Origin: Eubacteriales bacterium
GTDB lineage: Bacteria; Bacillota; Clostridia; Oscillospirales; CAG-272
Assembly: GCA_045595265.1 (NCBI GenBank)
Contig: JAZOAA010000023.1
Span: 1 to 37,737 of the forward strand
Length of the DNA stretch: 37,737 nt
Direction: 5' to 3'
The position numbers were made by a program, and so were the translations under genes. A model generated the notes under the pieces. The model searched no databases and was not told the origin of the DNA. It saw only the letters and a list, made by a program, of their open reading frames with translations. Positions 1,175 through 14,669 of the stretch are shown here, piece after piece (the stretch's first letter is position 1; the number at the start of each line of letters is the position of its first letter).

Positions 1175-2188
1175 TCATTTATCTAATATGGAAAGCTCAA
1201 CATGGTTAATATCGGAATATTCCTTAAATATCACGTCACGAACTCCGAGCTTTTCCGTTAAAGTAATCTTGTTTTTTCTTTTTTGCCCGATAGCCTTTGA
1301 AAGCGTGCCAAGCGGCACTTTAACAAGTAACATATCGTCTTTTTTTAATATCAGTTCTTTTGCTTTAGCATATATCTCGTCAAAATACAGCTTATTTTCA
1401 ACTAGCTCCCCAAGCGACGGGTGATTAGGACCTGCAAAATACGTATCGTCACTGCAAAGGTTATCAGAGGCGCAAAGTCCAAGACGTATAACGCCAACTC
1501 CCGATTTTCTGAAAAGCTTTAGCACCTCGGCGCATCTGTTTACAGCTTCTTCAAGGGTTAGAGGGCTATATTTTCCCTGCTTAGCCATCTCACACAGCTC
1601 GGTATCGCGAAATACCACCGTAGGATAAACCCTTGCGAATGAGGCTCCCGAGTTTATAATAAAACGAGCCGTATCCATCTCACTCTTAAGGGTTGATCCA
1701 GGCAAGCCTATCATCATTTGACCTACGAGCGTAATGCCCGAATCCACGATTAGCTTGCAAGCTCTGATCTCATCATCAGCGGTGTGACCGCGCTTTGATC
1801 GTCGAAGAACCTCGGGATCAACGCTTTGAAGTCCAAGCTCTACCGTGCTGACACCGTAGCGCTTAAGAGTTGAAATGATTTTTTCGTCAATGTAATCGGG
1901 TCTTGTCGAACAGCGAATCGACGTCACAAGACCGCGTTCAATATAAGAGTGAGCAATTCGTAGCAACTCGGTCATCAAGGCAAAATCAATGCCTGTAAAA
2001 GAACCGCCAAAAAAAGCTATCTCTACCTCATCATCTTTAGAAACCGTTGAAAGCGCCTCATCAATTATCTTTTCGGTTTCCGAAGGATCAAAGCTCTCAA
2101 CGCCCGAAATTGTATGTTGATTGCAAAAAACACAGTTGTTCGGACACCCGAGGTGCGGAATAAAAACCGGGATATTAATATGTCTCAT
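1175..2188 (-). CDS. Radical SAM protein (ELP3-like/COG1243-type, function unknown)
   Basis: 337-aa ORF with N-terminal CPNNCVFC (CxxxCxxC) cluster motif. ATGA start/stop overlap with rnc; sits between rnc and smc. Confidence 0.8.
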   Translation of the reverse strand: MRHINIPVFIPHLGCPNNCVFCNQHTISGVESFDPSETEKIIDEALSTVSKDDEVEIAFFGGSFTGIDFALMTELLRIAHSYIERGLVTSIRCSTRPDYIDEKIISTLKRYGVSTVELGLQSVDPEVLRRSKRGHTADDEIRACKLIVDSGITLVGQMMIGLPGSTLKSEMDTARFIINSGASFARVYPTVVFRDTELCEMAKQGKYSPLTLEEAVNRCAEVLKLFRKSGVGVIRLGLCASDNLCSDDTYFAGPNHPSLGELVENKLYFDEIYAKAKELILKKDDMLLVKVPLGTLSKAIGQKRKNKITLTEKLGVRDVIFKEYSDINHVELSILDK

Positions 2189-11033: not shown

Positions 11034-11187
11034 GGCTGTGTACCTCCAAAAACAAAAAAATGCATACGGAGAATTTCCGCACGCACACACGTATCCTAAA
11101 AGGAAATAAACGTATTAACCATACGCACCCTTGTGGTATGGTGAGAACGGAAATTCTGCTTTGATTTATGAAATATCTTTCAATTTC
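11034..11187 (-). promoter_or_regulatory. infC-rpmI-rplT 5' leader, candidate L20-responsive attenuator
   Basis: Leader of about 150 nt between the promoter and the infC SD. It has a 10-bp long-range helix (11148-11157 with 11070-11079), inner hairpin ACCAUAC/GUAUGGU, then U7-G-U5 (11048-11060) just before the SD. Confidence 0.5.
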
Positions 11188-11193
11188 GCAAGT

Positions 11194-11222
11194 ATTATAC
11201 CACTCTTTTTAATGTTTGTCAA
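11194..11222 (-). promoter_or_regulatory. Sigma-A type promoter of the infC operon
   Basis: Minus strand: TTGACA (11217-11222), 17 nt spacer, TATAAT (11194-11199). Confidence 0.75.
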
Positions 11223-11327
11223 TAGGTTTTTTTATTTTTTTTGAAATTCTTTTGCCCTTTTTATTTTTTTCTGCATTTTCTACTTATTTCACAAACATTT
11301 TGGTGATAAATTGTTAAAAATACCATC

Positions 11328-11356
11328 TTTACAAACGAGAAAAAAAGATGTATAAT
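11328..11356 (+). promoter_or_regulatory. Promoter of orphan small RNA
   Basis: TTTACA (11328-11333), 17 nt spacer, TATAAT (11351-11356). Confidence 0.6.
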
Positions 11357-11362
11357 GTAATA

Positions 11363-11550
11363 GCGCAAGGCGGTTATATATATTTTCGCTTTGCGGTATG
11401 ATACGTTTGCCCAAAGAAGCATCAATCTTATGATGCCAAAGCACGGAGGGCGGCTACATATTTTTATAGGTATGCGGAATACCGCGTGCTGTGAACAGAG
11501 CTTTATGCTCAAACGGGGGTTGTCAAATGCAGGGACAGCCCCTTTTTGTT
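11363..11550 (+). ncRNA. Unclassified structured small RNA (promoter-to-terminator unit, about 190 nt)
   Basis: Bounded by its own promoter and a 9-bp terminator (11516-11524 / 11534-11542) plus T5GTT. Internal hairpins: CGCAAGGCG/CGCTTTGCG (11364-11395), GCATCA/TGATGC (11419-11436), and GCGGTAT (11393-11399) or GGTAT (11469-11473) competing for ATACCGC (11479-11485). No RBS-preceded ORF. The next gene has a separate promoter. Confidence 0.5.
11516..11550 (+). terminator. Intrinsic terminator of the orphan small RNA
   Basis: GGGGTTGTC-aaatgcagg-GACAGCCCC followed by TTTTTGTT. Confidence 0.8.
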
Positions 11551-11578
11551 ATTAATATAATAAATGTAGAGTTTTGTA

Positions 11579-11607
11579 TTGACAAAATATAAATCATATG
11601 TTATAAT
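11579..11607 (+). promoter_or_regulatory. Promoter of the SPFH gene
   Basis: TTGACA (11579-11584), 17 nt spacer, TATAAT (11602-11607); AGGAGAA RBS before ATG 11642. Confidence 0.75.
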
Positions 11608-11641
11608 TTTGATATCAAAATAATATCACAAGGAGAAAACA

Positions 11642-12658
11642 ATGCAAGAAAAAATTTTAACAACAAAAAAGCTTGGTATGCCCATGTTGCTTCTTACAAT
11701 ACTTTTAATGGCAGCTTCAGTGGCGGTTATCGTTCTCGGCGGCTTTATGAGCACGGAAGAAGCGCCATCGCCTATCCTGTTTATCGGCATACTTCTGTGT
11801 TGCGTCACATGGATTCCCCTGCTCGGTCTTAAGGTCCTAAAACCGCAGGAGGCTCTTGTTATTACACTCTTTGGAAAATACAGAGGAACACTTAAGGGGG
11901 ACGGATTTTTCTGGATCAACCCATTTTCGTCCTCATTTAACCCCGCTGCAAAAACCAAGCTGAGTCAAAGCGCTGACGTTTCAACCCCCATCAACATAAT
12001 TCAAGGAACACAATCCTCGCAAAGCATCGATCTTGCCGCGGCATCAAATAAGATTTCTCTTAAGATAATGACACTCAACAACGCAAAACAAAAAATCAAT
12101 GACTGTCTCGGCAACCCCGTTGAAATAGGAATTGCTGTTACTTGGAAAATAGTTGATACTGCCAAAGCGGTATTTAACGTGGACAATTATAAGGAGTTCC
12201 TCTCTCTTCAGTGTGACAGCGCCCTACGTAACGTAGTAAGAATATATCCTTACGACATCGCACCTAACGTTGATACTACCGGAGACGGTGTTGCTGATGA
12301 AGGAAGCCTGCGCGGCTCAAGCGAGGTCGTTGCGGATAGAATAAGAAACGAAATTCAGAAAAGAGTTGACGAAGCGGGTATTGAAATAATTGAAGCTAGA
12401 ATAACCTACCTTGCTTATGCACCCGAAATCGCAGCGGTAATGCTTCAACGCCAGCAGGCATCAGCTATAATTGATGCAAGACGAATGATAGTTGACGGTG
12501 CTGTTGGAATGGTCGAGATGGCCCTTGAACGCCTGGCAGATAACGAAACGGTGGTTCTTGATGACGAAAGAAAAGCTGCCATGGTATCCAACCTGCTTGT
12601 AGTTCTCTGCGGTAACAAAGACGCGCAGCCCGTGGTAAACTCCGGCACCCTTTATTGA
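11642..12658 (+). CDS. SPFH/Band-7 (stomatin-prohibitin-flotillin) domain membrane protein
   Basis: 338 aa. Two N-terminal hydrophobic segments, then LKVLKPQEALVITLFGKYRGTL..GFFWINPF, typical of the SPFH domain start, and a C-terminal A/Q-rich helical region. Confidence 0.75.
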   Translation: MQEKILTTKKLGMPMLLLTILLMAASVAVIVLGGFMSTEEAPSPILFIGILLCCVTWIPLLGLKVLKPQEALVITLFGKYRGTLKGDGFFWINPFSSSFNPAAKTKLSQSADVSTPINIIQGTQSSQSIDLAAASNKISLKIMTLNNAKQKINDCLGNPVEIGIAVTWKIVDTAKAVFNVDNYKEFLSLQCDSALRNVVRIYPYDIAPNVDTTGDGVADEGSLRGSSEVVADRIRNEIQKRVDEAGIEIIEARITYLAYAPEIAAVMLQRQQASAIIDARRMIVDGAVGMVEMALERLADNETVVLDDERKAAMVSNLLVVLCGNKDAQPVVNSGTLY

Positions 12659-12670
12659 CGAGGGCGTAGA

Positions 12671-12853
12671 ATGAAGGATACTGCGGATAATTCAAAAAAA
12701 CAAGTTCCTTTGAGGCTTTCAAAGAAGCTATACGATGCAATAGCAAAATGGGCTGATGATGATTTTCGCTCGGTTAACGGACAGATAGAATATCTTCTGA
12801 CCGAATGTGTAAGGCGCAGAGGCGTTAAGAATTTGGCTGAAAAAGACGAATAA
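12671..12853 (+). CDS. Small Arc/MetJ-type ribbon-helix-helix protein
   Basis: 60 aa. KKQVPLRLSKKLYDAIAKWADDDFRSVNGQIEYLL matches the RHH beta-strand/helix/helix pattern. GAGGG RBS; 12 nt after the SPFH stop. Confidence 0.6.
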   Translation: MKDTADNSKKQVPLRLSKKLYDAIAKWADDDFRSVNGQIEYLLTECVRRRGVKNLAEKDE

Positions 12854-12919: not shown

Positions 12920-12948
12920 TTGACAAAACTATATTTATATGATATACT
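12920..12948 (+). promoter_or_regulatory. Promoter of the ylxM-ffh-rpsP operon
   Basis: TTGACA (12920-12925), 17 nt spacer, TATACT (12943-12948). Confidence 0.7.
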
Positions 12949-12988
12949 TGTAAAGCAATTTACTTTACAGCACTCGGACGGTAGAATT

Positions 12989-13339
12989 ATGTTTGAGAAA
13001 AATATGAAAATTGCATATTTGCTCGACTTTTACGGCGATGCGCTCGACGATCACGTCAGCACCGTAATGCGCGCATATTATAATGAGGATCTTTCTCTTG
13101 CGGAAATAGCCGATGACGTCGGTATTTCCAGACAAGGAGTCCGTCATCTTATTAAAAAAGGCGAGGAGCTTATTGAGTTTTATGAAGCAAAATTCGCTCT
13201 TGCCGCACGTCACACAGAGCTAACGGAGGTGTGCAAATCTCTTACCGAGATAGGCGAACGAATTGCACGCTCAGATACTACATCAGCCGATGCACAAGAG
13301 CTTTCTCGCATTGTCGGAATAATTTTGAAAGGAAACTGA
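12989..13339 (+). CDS. ylxM: YlxM/p13-like putative DNA-binding protein (UPF0122)
   Basis: MFEKNMKIAYLLDFYGDAL...YYNEDLSLAEIADDVGISRQGV (sigma-70 region-4-like HTH), immediately upstream of ffh. The track start at 12920 lies inside the promoter -35. Confidence 0.85.
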   Translation: MFEKNMKIAYLLDFYGDALDDHVSTVMRAYYNEDLSLAEIADDVGISRQGVRHLIKKGEELIEFYEAKFALAARHTELTEVCKSLTEIGERIARSDTTSADAQELSRIVGIILKGN

Positions 13340-13340
13340 T

Positions 13341-14669
13341 ATGTTCGGAAATCTTACCGAAAAGCTTGCAGGAGCTTTCAAGAAATTCAGAAGCAAAGGC
13401 AAGCTTACCGAAGCCGATGTAAAAGAAGGCATGCGCGAAGTAAAGCTTGCGCTTCTTGAGGCGGACGTAAACTTTAAGGTGGTCAAGGATTTCGTAAAAT
13501 CGGTTACCGAGCGTGCTATTGGCAGCGAGGTTCTTGAAAGCCTTTTACCCGCGCAACATATAGTTAAAATCGTTAACGAGGAGCTTATTCGCCTTATGGG
13601 CGGTGAAACTCCTAAAATAAATATAAGCCCAAAGCCCCCTACGGTTATCATGATGGTCGGTCTTCAGGGTGCCGGTAAAACAACCCACGCGGCAAAGATC
13701 GCAGGTATGTATAAGCAAAAAAGCAAGTCTCCCCTGCTCGTCGCATGTGACGTTTACCGTCCAGCAGCGGTTGACCAGCTAAAAATAGTCGGTGAATCGC
13801 TTAATATTCCCGTTTTTTCGATGGGTACTAAAATTTCGCCTGTCGAAATTGCAAAAGCCGGTATAGAACACGCAAAGAGAAACGGTAACGATATGGTGAT
13901 TATCGATACCGCCGGCCGTCTTCACATTGACGAAGAGTTGATGAATGAGTTGGTGAATATAAAAAGAACAACCGACCCTTCCGAAATTCTTCTCGTGGTT
14001 GATGCGATGACAGGACAAGATGCCGTTAACGTTGCAAAATCATTCAACGACCTGCTCGACATTACCGGCGTCGTTATGACCAAAATGGACGGTGACACCC
14101 GTGGCGGTGCTGCCCTATCTGTTAAATATATTACCGGAAAACCGATCAAGTTTATCGGTACGGGCGAAAAGCTTGATGCTATTGAGATATTCCATCCAGA
14201 CAGAATGGCATCAAGAATTCTCGGAATGGGAGATATTCTCTCTTTGATTGAGAAAGCGGAAGCAGCCTATGATGAAAAGAATGCCAAAGAGCTTGAGAAA
14301 AAAATGCGTGAGCAGACCTTCTCACTCGAGGACTTTCTTGATCAAATGCGCCAGCTTAAAAAAATGGGAAATCTCGATCAAATTCTCGCAATGATGCCCG
14401 GTGCAAATGCCGGTGCACTTAAAAATGCGCAGATTGATGAAAAGCAAATGGCAAGAATAGAGGCTATCATACTTTCTATGACACCGGAAGAAAGGCTGAA
14501 GCCCGATATTATCAATGGCTCAAGACGCAAGCGTATAGCTAGAGGCAGCGGAACGCAGGTTGAGGACGTCAACCGTCTCTTAAAGCAATTTGACCAGATG
14601 AAAAAAATGATGAAGCAGCTTTCGGGTAAGAACCTGAAGCGCTTCAGCGGCATGAGATTGCCGATGTAA
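13341..14669 (+). CDS. ffh: Signal recognition particle protein Ffh
   Basis: 442 aa. [10 protein letters not shown]-loop, DTAGR, TKMDGD, and a Met-rich C-terminal M domain. Confidence 0.97.

What the first reader, a model, noticed from the sequence alone, without database searches (positions are those of the whole stretch)
11328..11550. Orphan, independently transcribed structured RNA of about 190 nt that I cannot classify
Seen in sequence: TTTACA-17 nt-TATAAT (11328-11356) is followed about 160 nt later by a strong terminator (9-bp GC-rich stem plus T5GTT, 11516-11550). The next gene (SPFH, 11642) has its own consensus promoter after this terminator, so this is not simply that gene's leader.

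The interior has several clean helices: CGCAAGGCG/CGCTTTGCG (11364-11395), GCATCA/TGATGC (11419-11436) and GCCC/GGGC (11409-11412 with 11448-11451). There is also a mutually exclusive pairing choice: ATACCGC (11479-11485) can pair either with distal GCGGTAT (11393-11399) or with adjacent GGTAT (11469-11473). The only ORFs (11 and 41 codons) lack RBSs.

I checked the sequence by eye against the hallmark motifs I could recall for SRP RNA (no GGAA-tetraloop domain IV), 6S RNA (no end-to-end closing helix), T-box, TPP, purine, ZTP and ykkC. Only an ACGGAGGG resemblance to ykkC appeared. The alternative pairing suggests a ligand- or protein-responsive switch, or a trans-acting sRNA.
Basis: seen in the sequence. 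Interest (0 to 1): 0.6.

Follow-up and report, generated by a model that had tools for sequence, protein, structure and literature searches.

The report
Undescribed small RNA beside infC
The flagged stretch is a real small non-coding RNA gene with its own promoter and terminator, and it belongs to an uncatalogued RNA family found between the infC and lon genes in many genera of uncultured gut and rumen Clostridia; what it does is still unknown.

Summary
Window 11328-11550 (+) has a near-consensus promoter, a roughly 185-nt transcript that folds better than shuffles (z = -3.98), and a strong intrinsic terminator.

Neither this RNA nor 20 relatives match any of the 4227 Rfam 15 families. The genome's 6S and SRP RNAs lie elsewhere.

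It is a conserved gene. One copy occurs in 41 of 151 sampled genomes of the genus. A shorter form occurs in 43 of 150 genomes (31 of 97 genera) of the bacterial family. No credible copy was found in 29 other families of the order.

All members share:
- a conserved promoter with upstream boxes;
- a hairpin NNNUCA-AKCUYA-UGANNN whose stem shows compensatory changes (25 cells against 4.7 ± 1.9 in shuffles);
- a purine-rich internal loop;
- a U-tailed terminator.

The gene sits in the infC-lon intergenic region. It keeps its form when inverted, and when lon is replaced by other genes, as in this window. No ORF is conserved. I found no complementary mRNA target, and no Hfq or CsrA gene.

Best reading: a new trans-acting small RNA family whose invariant apical hairpin is the recognition site for an unknown partner. 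Expression could not be shown.

The parts
11273..11296 (+). Upstream promoter box A (GCATTTTCTACTTATTTCACAAAC), about 40 bp upstream of the -35 element
   Evidence: Conserved in 66 aligned promoters of family members. It reads TTTTTTACAAAC in the genus and TTTCCACGAATTTT in other genera.
11308..11327 (+). Upstream promoter box B, an A/T-tract element (AAATTGTTAAAAATACCATC) abutting the -35. It looks like an UP element or a regulator site.
   Evidence: Consensus aAAAAtTg.t.aattTt.catc directly 5' of an invariant TTTACA in 66 promoters from more than 25 genera. Its role as an UP element or regulator site is inferred.
11328..11356 (+). Sigma-A type promoter: TTTACA, 17 nt, TATAAT. Predicted start near 11363.
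   Evidence: 11 of 12 positions. The same hexamers and spacing occur in all members. The start site is inferred, not measured.
11364..11395 (+). 5' hairpin (9 bp), lineage-specific
   Evidence: Present in the fold. A hairpin of different sequence sits here in G518 and G027. It is absent in most members.
11407..11412 (+). P1, 5' strand (UUGCCC)
   Evidence: Pairs with 11448-11453. A helix of variable sequence lies at this position in members. In an anchored test 69% of cells pair, against 30-47% when the partner strand is slid.
11413..11418 (+). J12, the purine-rich 5' side of the internal loop (AAAGAA)
   Evidence: Consensus RAAGRA in the genus and GGA(A) in other genera. The G three nucleotides before P2 is at least 90% conserved.
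11419..11436 (+). P2 hairpin GCAUCA-AUCUUA-UGAUGC, the invariant centre of the family
   Evidence: In 44 sequences 94.3% of cells pair. There are 25 compensatory cells against 4.7 ± 1.9 in shuffles (0 of 500). One pair shows AU 29, GC 9, CG 3, UA 2. The bases C, A, A, C, A, U, G of CAAnCnnAUG are invariant.
11437..11447 (+). J21, the 3' side of the internal loop (CAAAGCACGGA)
   Evidence: Consensus nAAAnCACsGA in members with the canonical geometry. It is shorter (CAACN) in other genera.
11448..11453 (+). P1, 3' strand (GGGCGG)
11463..11510 (+). Two lineage-specific hairpins (11463-11495 and 11498-11510).
   Evidence: Fold. They are shared only with G518, where compensatory changes keep the local hairpin, and are absent in G027 and the rest.
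11515..11550 (+). Intrinsic terminator: 10-bp stem, loop AAAUGCAGG, then U5GUU
   Evidence: In G518, G027 and G475 the stem covaries while the loop CAAAUGCAGGGA is kept. Every member ends in a hairpin plus U-run.

Best explanation
Window 11363-11547 (+) encodes a small non-coding RNA of about 185 nt. It is transcribed from its own strong sigma-A promoter and ended by its own intrinsic terminator.

It belongs to an undescribed small RNA family that sits in the infC-lon intergenic region in a family of gut and rumen Clostridia. The functional core is a hairpin module: helix P1, a purine-rich asymmetric internal loop, then a 6-bp helix P2 capped by the near-invariant loop CA-AKCUYA-UG. Everything else varies by lineage (5' hairpin, extra hairpins, and whether the terminator is separate or formed by the module's own stem).

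The RNA most likely acts in trans. The exposed, sequence-invariant apical hairpin and internal loop would serve as the recognition site for a partner. I favour a protein partner over an mRNA partner.

Shown here: gene-like anatomy, single copy, conservation, covariation, absence of a conserved ORF, and independence from the orientation and identity of neighbouring genes.

Inferred: that it is transcribed, that it acts in trans, and the nature of its partner.

My odds: real conserved non-coding RNA gene 0.85-0.9; trans-acting 0.6; protein partner about 0.35; base-pairing partner about 0.2.
For: Anatomy: promoter, terminator and fold z = -3.98 on the + strand only.

Not a known family: there are no Rfam hits in the window or in 20 member loci. 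6S RNA (G000:C176) and SRP RNA (G000:C50) lie elsewhere.

Conservation:
- Model R1 finds exactly one copy in 41 of 151 genus genomes.
- Model R3 finds the module in 43 of 150 genomes, 31 of 97 genera, of the bacterial family.
- Hits in 29 other families of the order lie inside coding sequence and have no promoter or terminator.

Structure:
- P2 shows strong covariation.
- P1 is supported by an anchored test.
- Subfamily A has a closing helix and a terminator stem that both covary.
- In 23 of 25 members from other genera the module caps a 65-90-nt stem that ends in the U-run.

The promoter boxes are conserved across 66 members.

Independence from neighbouring genes:
- Downstream genes are lon, SPFH, recG, a tRNA, a lysine riboswitch or convergent genes.
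- The RNA is inverted, so co-oriented with infC, in G102, G189 and G096. G183, in the same genus as G096, has the usual orientation.
- In the window's own genome lon lies on another contig with its own promoter and no such RNA upstream.

Not coding: reading frames through the module run 3 to more than 40 codons. They have no common start or stop, and many run into the terminator.
Against: - No expression data. Four bovine or animal gut metatranscriptomes gave no cover of 11242-11640, apart from one relative's contig that also spans the promoter. That contig may therefore be DNA or read-through.
- No partner was identified. There is no significant complementarity to lon 5' UTRs (z about 0) or to infC leaders. 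There is no near-complementary site in the 80%-complete genome outside coding sequence.
- No Hfq or CsrA gene in five genomes, four of them at least 96% complete.
- The distribution is patchy. About 70% of genomes in the genus and the family lack the RNA, so it is dispensable.
- Persistent synteny with lon, co-oriented in 20 of 25 members from other genera, leaves room for a cis role.
Confidence: 0.6

Rival explanations
1. The element is, or ancestrally was, a cis-acting attenuator upstream of lon. Transcription from the strong upstream promoter would end at the module's terminator unless a factor binding the apical hairpin lets it read through into lon. In the window it would be a stranded remnant upstream of SPFH.
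For: - lon lies 150-430 nt downstream in the same orientation in most members from other genera (20 of 25).
- The same holds for at least 14 members in the genus, and for G078 and G207.
- In the short form the conserved hairpin is the apex of the terminator itself, as in an expression platform.
Against: - A separate, conserved lon promoter lies between the terminator and lon.
- The terminators have long stems and U-runs of 4-8 nt, and I saw no conserved alternative (antiterminator) pairing.
- The RNA is retained intact when inverted towards infC (G102, G189, G096).
- It is also retained when followed by SPFH, recG, a tRNA, a lysine riboswitch or convergent genes.
- In G000, lon sits elsewhere without it.
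Confidence: 0.15
2. It is a classical base-pairing small RNA. A conserved unpaired stretch (the apical loop AKCUYA, the C-rich J21 strand, or the subfamily-specific GGUUAUUGGUACAUAUUG and terminator loops) acts as a seed that pairs with mRNA ribosome-binding sites, without Hfq.
For: - Stand-alone small RNA anatomy.
- J21 is C-rich in many members and reads UUCACCUCCCC, like an anti-Shine-Dalgarno sequence, in G029, G467, G176 and G536.
- Subfamily A has an invariant 18-nt stretch that is predicted to be largely unpaired, and an invariant terminator loop CGUGGGGGCG.
- Firmicute small RNAs often work without Hfq (general knowledge).
Against: - The only family-wide invariant bases are A/U-rich and half buried in P2.
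- No complementary site near a start codon was found in G000.
- No signal against lon or infC leaders.
- The candidate seeds differ between subfamilies, so no common target site can be inferred.
Confidence: 0.2
3. The region encodes a tiny peptide. One candidate is the 11-codon ORF ending at the UGA inside P2 (MIRLPKEASIL). The other is the ORF starting at the invariant AUG of P2. The RNA would then be an mRNA or a dual-function RNA.
For: - AUG and UGA are invariant within CAAnCnnAUGA.
- Some members have an in-frame start (window, G026, G476) and a common ...ASIL or ...ASSL ending.
- The variable third stem position coincides with a codon wobble position.
Against: - Many members have no in-frame start codon (for example G535 and G467), and there is no Shine-Dalgarno sequence.
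- ORFs from the AUG range from 3 to more than 40 codons, and most run through the terminator U-run without a stop.
- The partner of the 'wobble' base lies beyond the stop codon and still covaries, which is an RNA-level constraint.
Confidence: 0.03
4. The element is a DNA-level feature, such as a palindromic operator, or a non-functional leftover whose hairpins persist by chance or by descent.
For: NNNTCA-N6-TGANNN is an inverted repeat, as many operators are. The carriers are related, so some conservation is expected from descent alone.
Against: - The outer stem positions change on both sides so that pairing is kept, with all four Watson-Crick types at one pair. Operators conserve their half-sites instead.
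- The centre AKCUYA is not palindromic.
- The element always lies between a promoter and a U-tailed terminator on one strand.
- The flanking sequence is freely diverged while the module is kept across more than 30 genera.
Confidence: 0.04

Closest known systems
Stand-alone regulatory small RNAs of Firmicutes with conserved hairpin loops (for example RsaE/RoxS)
   Same: An intergenic, single-copy gene of 100-190 nt with its own sigma-A promoter and intrinsic terminator. It has a few hairpins, and sequence conservation is concentrated in the loops. It works in organisms without Hfq.
   Different: - No Rfam model for RsaE or any other small RNA scores.
- The family-wide conserved loop is A/U-rich (AKCUYA) rather than the C-rich UCCC motif.
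- No target complementarity was found.
Protein-binding housekeeping or sponge RNAs (6S RNA; CsrB/RsmZ type)
   Same: Strong promoter with conserved upstream A/T elements. One copy per genome. Conservation of shape plus a few exposed nucleotides rather than a long seed. No conserved mRNA complement.
   Different: - A genuine 6S RNA is present elsewhere (G000:C176, 69.7 bits), and this RNA has no end-to-end helix with a central bubble.
- There is only one recognition module per molecule, not many GGA loops.
- No CsrA gene was found.
- The RNA is patchy, present in about 30% of genomes, whereas 6S was found in all five genomes checked.
Ribosomal protein L20 leader (RF00558) of the neighbouring infC-rpmI-rplT operon
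   Same: It lies in the same intergenic region. It is a structured RNA linked to infC in most carriers.
   Different: - The L20 leader is a separate element on the opposite strand at 11050-11167. It scores 39.3 bits, below the gathering score of 58.7, in the window and 27-55 bits in relatives.
- The small RNA has its own promoter, shares no sequence with it, and also occurs away from infC (G010, G078, G207).
Kink-turn or tandem G-A internal loops (for example Kt-7)
   Same: In canonical genus members the 5' strand reads C-GAA-GA-A-GC, like the bulged strand of Kt-7 (from memory). The 3' strand ends in GA next to P1 in 29 of 45 members.
   Different: - The non-bulged strand carries 6-9 extra nucleotides.
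- Many members have GG or AA where the G-A pair is required.
- The short form in other genera has only GGA(A) opposite CAACN.
- I do not file it as a kink-turn.

Membership tests
Any Rfam 15 family (4227 models, including ykkC, 6S, SRP, T-box, TPP, purine, ZTP, cow-rumen and Clostridiales motifs) | Covariance-model score at or above the family's gathering score | tested here: not met
   The gathering scan of the window finds only a tRNA. The E <= 10 scan of 11050-11700 finds nothing credible on the + strand RNA; the best hit is SpF03 at 17.7 bits against 50. Twenty member loci scanned at E <= 1 also give nothing on the RNA.
6S RNA | Long closing helix joining the 5' and 3' ends, a central bubble, and a match to RF00013 | tested here: not met
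   The fold has no end-to-end helix. RF00013 matches another locus in G000 (C176, 69.7 bits) and one locus in each of four relatives.
SRP RNA | Domain IV hairpin and a match to RF00169 | tested here: not met
   RF00169 matches G000:C50 (71.6 bits) and one locus in each of four relatives.
Riboswitch or cis-regulatory leader | Constant position directly upstream of, and co-oriented with, one gene family, with no promoter in between | tested here: not met
   Downstream genes vary and carry their own promoters. Orientation is inverted in G102, G189 and G096.
Riboswitch or cis-regulatory leader | Conserved mutually exclusive terminator and antiterminator pairings | tested here: not met
No alternative pairing is evident in the short form.
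Trans-encoded bacterial small RNA gene | Own promoter and own intrinsic terminator in an intergenic region | tested here: met
   The same holds in 45 genus members and 23 of 25 members from other genera.
Trans-encoded bacterial small RNA gene | Conservation with structure-preserving changes and no conserved ORF | tested here: met
   for structure. for ORFs.
Trans-encoded bacterial small RNA gene | A discrete transcript is detected | tested here: inconclusive
   The metatranscriptome contigs give no usable cover of the locus.
Trans-encoded bacterial small RNA gene | An identified trans target or partner | tested here: inconclusive
   No complementarity to lon or infC leaders, nor elsewhere in G000. 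No Hfq or CsrA gene. Protein partners cannot be tested with these tools.
Kink-turn motif | Three-nucleotide bulge followed by tandem sheared G-A and A-G pairs between two helices | tested here: inconclusive
   The pattern fits about a dozen canonical genus members but not subfamily A, G476, G522 or the short form. The three-dimensional fold cannot be tested here.
Small-protein gene or dual-function small RNA | Conserved reading frame with a start codon, ribosome-binding site and stop codon | tested here: not met
   Frames differ in length and start, and many have no stop before the terminator.

The most novel reading that the evidence does not exclude
The family is a new class of abundant regulatory RNA that binds a protein, comparable in rank to 6S or CsrB but specific to one family of uncultured gut Clostridia. 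It would be driven by an rRNA-like promoter with UP-type boxes. Its invariant apical hairpin (purine tract, about 10 nt, then AUGA) would capture a factor involved in translation initiation or proteostasis. That would explain why it has stayed between infC (IF3) and lon through inversions and gene replacements.
Probability: 0.15. Interest if true: 0.75.

Novelty: new member of a known kind. Interest (0 to 1): 0.55.

Why it matters
Few regulatory RNAs are catalogued for the uncultured Clostridia that are common in animal and human guts. Here is a clean candidate for a new RNA family. It has about 70 members in hand, a defined conserved module, covariation and a conserved promoter architecture.

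It could be added to RNA family databases, which would improve annotation of thousands of metagenome-assembled genomes. It also gives a concrete handle, the invariant hairpin, for pulling down a partner in any cultivable carrier.

Hfq and CsrA genes were not found in the five genomes checked, so the partner may point to an RNA-binding protein or mechanism not yet known in this group. If it turns out to be an ordinary small RNA with a few targets, the gain is mainly in annotation.

Tried and rejected
- **Loose pattern search.** Searching the hairpin with 2 mismatches in 400 genomes gave mostly chance hits in coding sequence, so I dropped it.
- **BLAST.** Searching the 241-nt region found only two relatives. 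Synteny through IF3 and covariance models were needed.
- **Similar promoters.** Promoter-like matches in G000:C93, G026:C37 and G001:C58 are unrelated promoters, one of them for a tRNA.
- **SPFH-based loci.** This search used the single genome-contig scan. It returned 80 loci from other Clostridia, and none carries the RNA.
- **Model R2** (P1 plus P2 from 8 canonical members) was overfitted. It aligned most other members only locally, so its alignment A5 was not used for pair counts.
- **RNAalifold on members from other genera.** On the MAFFT alignment it recovered only P2, because the outer stems do not align by sequence. Single-sequence folds were used instead.
- **RNA-seq.** Only contig-level metatranscriptomes were available, and they give no cover that bears on the locus.
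- **Target searches.** Searches against lon 5' UTRs, infC leaders and the whole G000 assembly found nothing.
- **Ideas considered and rejected:**
  - kink-turn: inconsistent across members;
  - CsrA sponge: GGA is not universal and no CsrA gene was found;
  - start-codon or initiation-region mimic: the purine tract is a poor Shine-Dalgarno sequence and the AUG is half paired;
  - self-complementary kissing loop: AAGCUU occurs in only about 40% of members;
  - known regulator boxes (CodY, Rex, TnrA, CtsR, CRP): from memory, none fits boxes A and B.
- **Literature.** Two full-text searches and two Breaker-laboratory motif surveys mention no such RNA. This is a limited search, not proof of absence.
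- **Type-2 copy.** BLAST of the copy on G000:C109 found no relative in 150 genus genomes.

Full report
**1. What is in the window**

The 550-bp gap between infC (minus strand) and the SPFH gene (plus strand, 11642) holds four elements.

- On the minus strand lies a 12-of-12 promoter (11222-11194) followed by a weak match to the L20 leader at 11167-11050. The match scores 39.3 bits, below the gathering score of 58.7.
- On the plus strand there is a promoter: TTTACA, 17 nt, TATAAT, at 11328-11356.
- The third element is a structured stretch that ends in a 10-bp G+C-rich hairpin and the run U5GUU at 11515-11550.
- Last comes a second 12-of-12 promoter for SPFH at 11579-11607.

The predicted transcript 11362-11550 folds to -67.4 kcal/mol, z = -3.98 against dinucleotide shuffles. 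Its reverse complement gives only z = -2.0.

**2. Not a catalogued RNA**

- Rfam 15 at gathering thresholds finds only a tRNA in the window.
- A permissive scan (E <= 10) of 11050-11700 finds nothing credible on the plus-strand RNA.
- A scan of 20 homologous loci also finds nothing on the RNA.
- The genome has a normal 6S RNA (C176) and SRP RNA (C50) elsewhere, as do four near-complete relatives.
- Two literature searches and two surveys of new bacterial RNA motifs gave nothing.

**3. Homologues in the genus**

BLAST found collinear pieces in G027 and G010. I then fetched the DNA upstream of infC in 30 genomes of the genus, using IF3 as the query. In 13 of them the same kind of unit is present. 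In about ten others infC faces lon directly with nothing in between, so the RNA has been lost or never gained there.

A covariance model of the core (R1) finds exactly one copy in 41 of 151 sampled genus genomes. In all, 45 members were collected, 60-190 nt long.

**4. Anatomy shared by the members**

(a) *Promoter.* The -35 is an invariant TTTACA(AA), 17 nt before TATAAT. It is preceded by an A/T-tract box (aAAAAtTg.t.aattTt.catc) and, about 40 bp further up, by a second box. Both boxes are conserved in 66 promoters, including those from other genera. The phased A/T tracts at about -40 to -60 resemble an UP element. This is an inference from general knowledge of such promoters.

(b) *Core module.*
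- Helix P1 is 3-6 bp and of variable sequence.
- The 5' internal-loop strand is RAAGRA.
- Helix P2 is NNNUCA / UGANNN with the loop AKCUYA.
- The 3' internal-loop strand is 8-11 nt, nAAAnCACsGA.
- Then comes the 3' strand of P1.

On an ungapped 44-sequence alignment, P2 pairs in 94.3% of cells. It has 25 cells with changes on both sides, against 4.7 ± 1.9 in shuffles (0 of 500). Slid controls pair in 13-60% of cells. One pair shows all four Watson-Crick types.

I tested P1 with anchors that were not chosen for pairing: six nucleotides before P2, and the conserved GA after it. Pairing was 69%, against 30-47% when the partner strand was slid.

(c) *Variable extras.*
- Subfamily A (12 genomes) has a closing helix GCUGCAA/UUGCGGC, an invariant GGUUAUUGGUACAUAUUG, and a terminator whose stem covaries under an invariant loop CGUGGGGGCG.
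- The window, G518 and G027 form another subfamily. They share a 5' hairpin and the terminator loop CAAAUGCAGGGA.

(d) *Terminator.* Every member ends in a hairpin plus a U-run.

**5. Spread beyond the genus**

A compact model of the module (R3) hits 43 of 150 genomes, 31 of 97 genera, of the same bacterial family. In a sample of the order, the hits in 29 other families are weak, lie inside coding sequence and have no promoter or terminator. Read as 'not found in those searched'.

I inspected 25 members from other genera. They carry the same promoter boxes, often a 5' hairpin, and then one irregular hairpin of 65-90 nt. Its apex is GGAAUAUCA-AKCUUA-UGAUAUCAAC. Its base, often GCACAAC/GUUGUGC, is followed directly by the U-run in 23 of 25 cases. 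In this short form the module sits on top of the RNA's own terminator. In the window's genus a separate terminator has been added.

**6. Genomic context**

In 20 of the 25 members from other genera the arrangement is infC (divergent), small RNA, lon (same direction, 150-945 nt downstream; 150-430 nt in most). In G189 and G096, and in G102, the RNA is inverted and points towards the infC promoter and L20 leader. G183, in the same genus as G096, has the usual orientation.

In the window's genus lon follows in at least 14 members. Elsewhere the downstream unit is SPFH (subfamily A and the window's subfamily), recG, a tRNA, a lysine riboswitch (G010, G470) or convergent genes. The downstream genes carry their own conserved promoters.

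In the window's own assembly lon lies on contig C6, behind its own promoter and next to a gene I read as ruvC-like (no domain search was run). No such RNA lies upstream of it.

The RNA therefore marks the old infC-lon gap, but it depends neither on the direction nor on the identity of its neighbours. This argues for a trans-acting product and against a leader.

**7. Not coding**

The invariant AUGA invites two readings: a stop for an upstream mini-ORF, or a start. Neither holds.
- Frames from the AUG run 3 to more than 40 codons, and most pass into the U-run without a stop.
- The base that looks like a codon wobble position covaries with a partner beyond the 'stop'.

**8. Mechanism**

What is conserved across more than 30 genera is a shape plus about ten exposed nucleotides in one hairpin. 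A long seed is not conserved.

I found no complement to the hairpin near any start codon in the 80%-complete genome. There was no excess complementarity to lon 5' UTRs in 14 species (z about 0), and no match in infC leaders. Hfq and CsrA genes were not found in five genomes, four of them at least 96% complete.

I therefore favour a protein partner that recognises the apical hairpin and internal loop (about 0.35). A base-pairing role comes next (about 0.2), perhaps through the C-rich J21 strand or subfamily-specific loops. A cis role at lon follows (about 0.15). All three are inferences.

The kink-turn likeness of C-GAA-GA-A-GC is real in a dozen members but fails in others and in the short form, so I do not claim it.

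**9.

The segment ATACCGC (11479-11485) lies in a hairpin that exists only in the window and G518. In G518 the local hairpin is kept by compensatory and wobble changes, while the distal pairing gains a central mismatch. G027 and all other members lack the region. There is no conserved alternative pairing. The ykkC likeness is not borne out by the models.

**10. Expression**

Five animal-gut metatranscriptomes (bovine gut by their records, for four of them) hold parts of the 4-kb stretch. I laid four of them. They are kept only as contigs and cover mainly the ribosomal protein genes.

The small RNA locus is touched only by one contig in run X4, from a relative, and that contig extends 255 nt upstream of the promoter box. 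This neither shows nor excludes transcription.

**11. Limits**

- Run records point to animal gut microbiomes, bovine gut in four of the five runs.
- Carrier counts come from samples scored with strict filters, and many assemblies are incomplete.
- Related genomes are not independent, so the shuffle statistics overstate significance. The slid controls and the many pair types are the sounder evidence.

**12. Verdict**

This is a real small RNA gene that has not been catalogued. It is a member of a family-wide RNA family with a well-defined conserved module and promoter. Its function is unknown. It is new as a family but ordinary in kind.

Noticed in passing
G000:C109 (locus L215) 1975-2095, minus strand: A second RNA with the same module (UGCGGAGUAUCA-AGCUUA-UGAUAU) sits on a 2265-bp contig of the same assembly. 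It is of the short form typical of other genera and has its own promoter and terminator. No relative was found in 150 genus genomes, so the contig may be binning contamination (the assembly is 3.5% contaminated) rather than a true paralogue.
   Followed up: partly
window 11050-11167 (-) and 11194-11222 (-): An L20-leader-like structure (39.3 bits, below the gathering score of 58.7) lies behind a perfect 12-of-12 promoter for infC-rpmI-rplT. Relatives score 27-55 bits, so this lineage's leader is a diverged form that Rfam's threshold misses.
   Followed up: partly
loci L076, L079, L080, L084, L086, L089 and others, about 60-100 nt before lon; also G000:C6 5105-5140: lon promoters across the bacterial family share an unusual conserved upstream word (CTATGGAAA, GTATAGATTTTT or GTGGATTTTTT). 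It precedes an extended -10 region, TGTTATAATATAATGAAT. This suggests a dedicated regulator or sigma factor for lon.
   Followed up: no
window 11579-11641; loci L087, L091, L097, L098, L106-L108, L111, L112: SPFH promoters carry a conserved repeat, ATGATATCATTATGATATCA, over the -10 region and the start. The window has GTTATAATTTTGATATCAAAATAATATC. This is a likely operator, perhaps for the 60-aa protein encoded after SPFH (12671-12853). That protein has no Pfam match at E <= 1e-5.
   Followed up: no
locus L090 (G010:C6) 396-561; likewise G470: In two genus members the small RNA is followed not by lon or SPFH but by a lysine riboswitch (79.6 bits).
   Followed up: no
window 12920-14669 (+): ylxM (UPF0122) and ffh (SRP54) follow the SPFH unit. 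In this species the old infC-lon neighbourhood has therefore been rebuilt.
   Followed up: partly
loci L224, L225, L228, L231, L244 (5' hairpin of the short-form RNAs): Several members from other genera share a second conserved hairpin loop, AUGGGCCAAUA, in the 5' hairpin. This hints at a second recognition site in those lineages.
   Followed up: no
locus L003 (G026:C37), about 130-400 of the reverse strand as printed: A long structured leader of about 250 nt lies behind a similar promoter and ahead of a gene. It was not identified, and may be a riboswitch or T-box.
   Followed up: no
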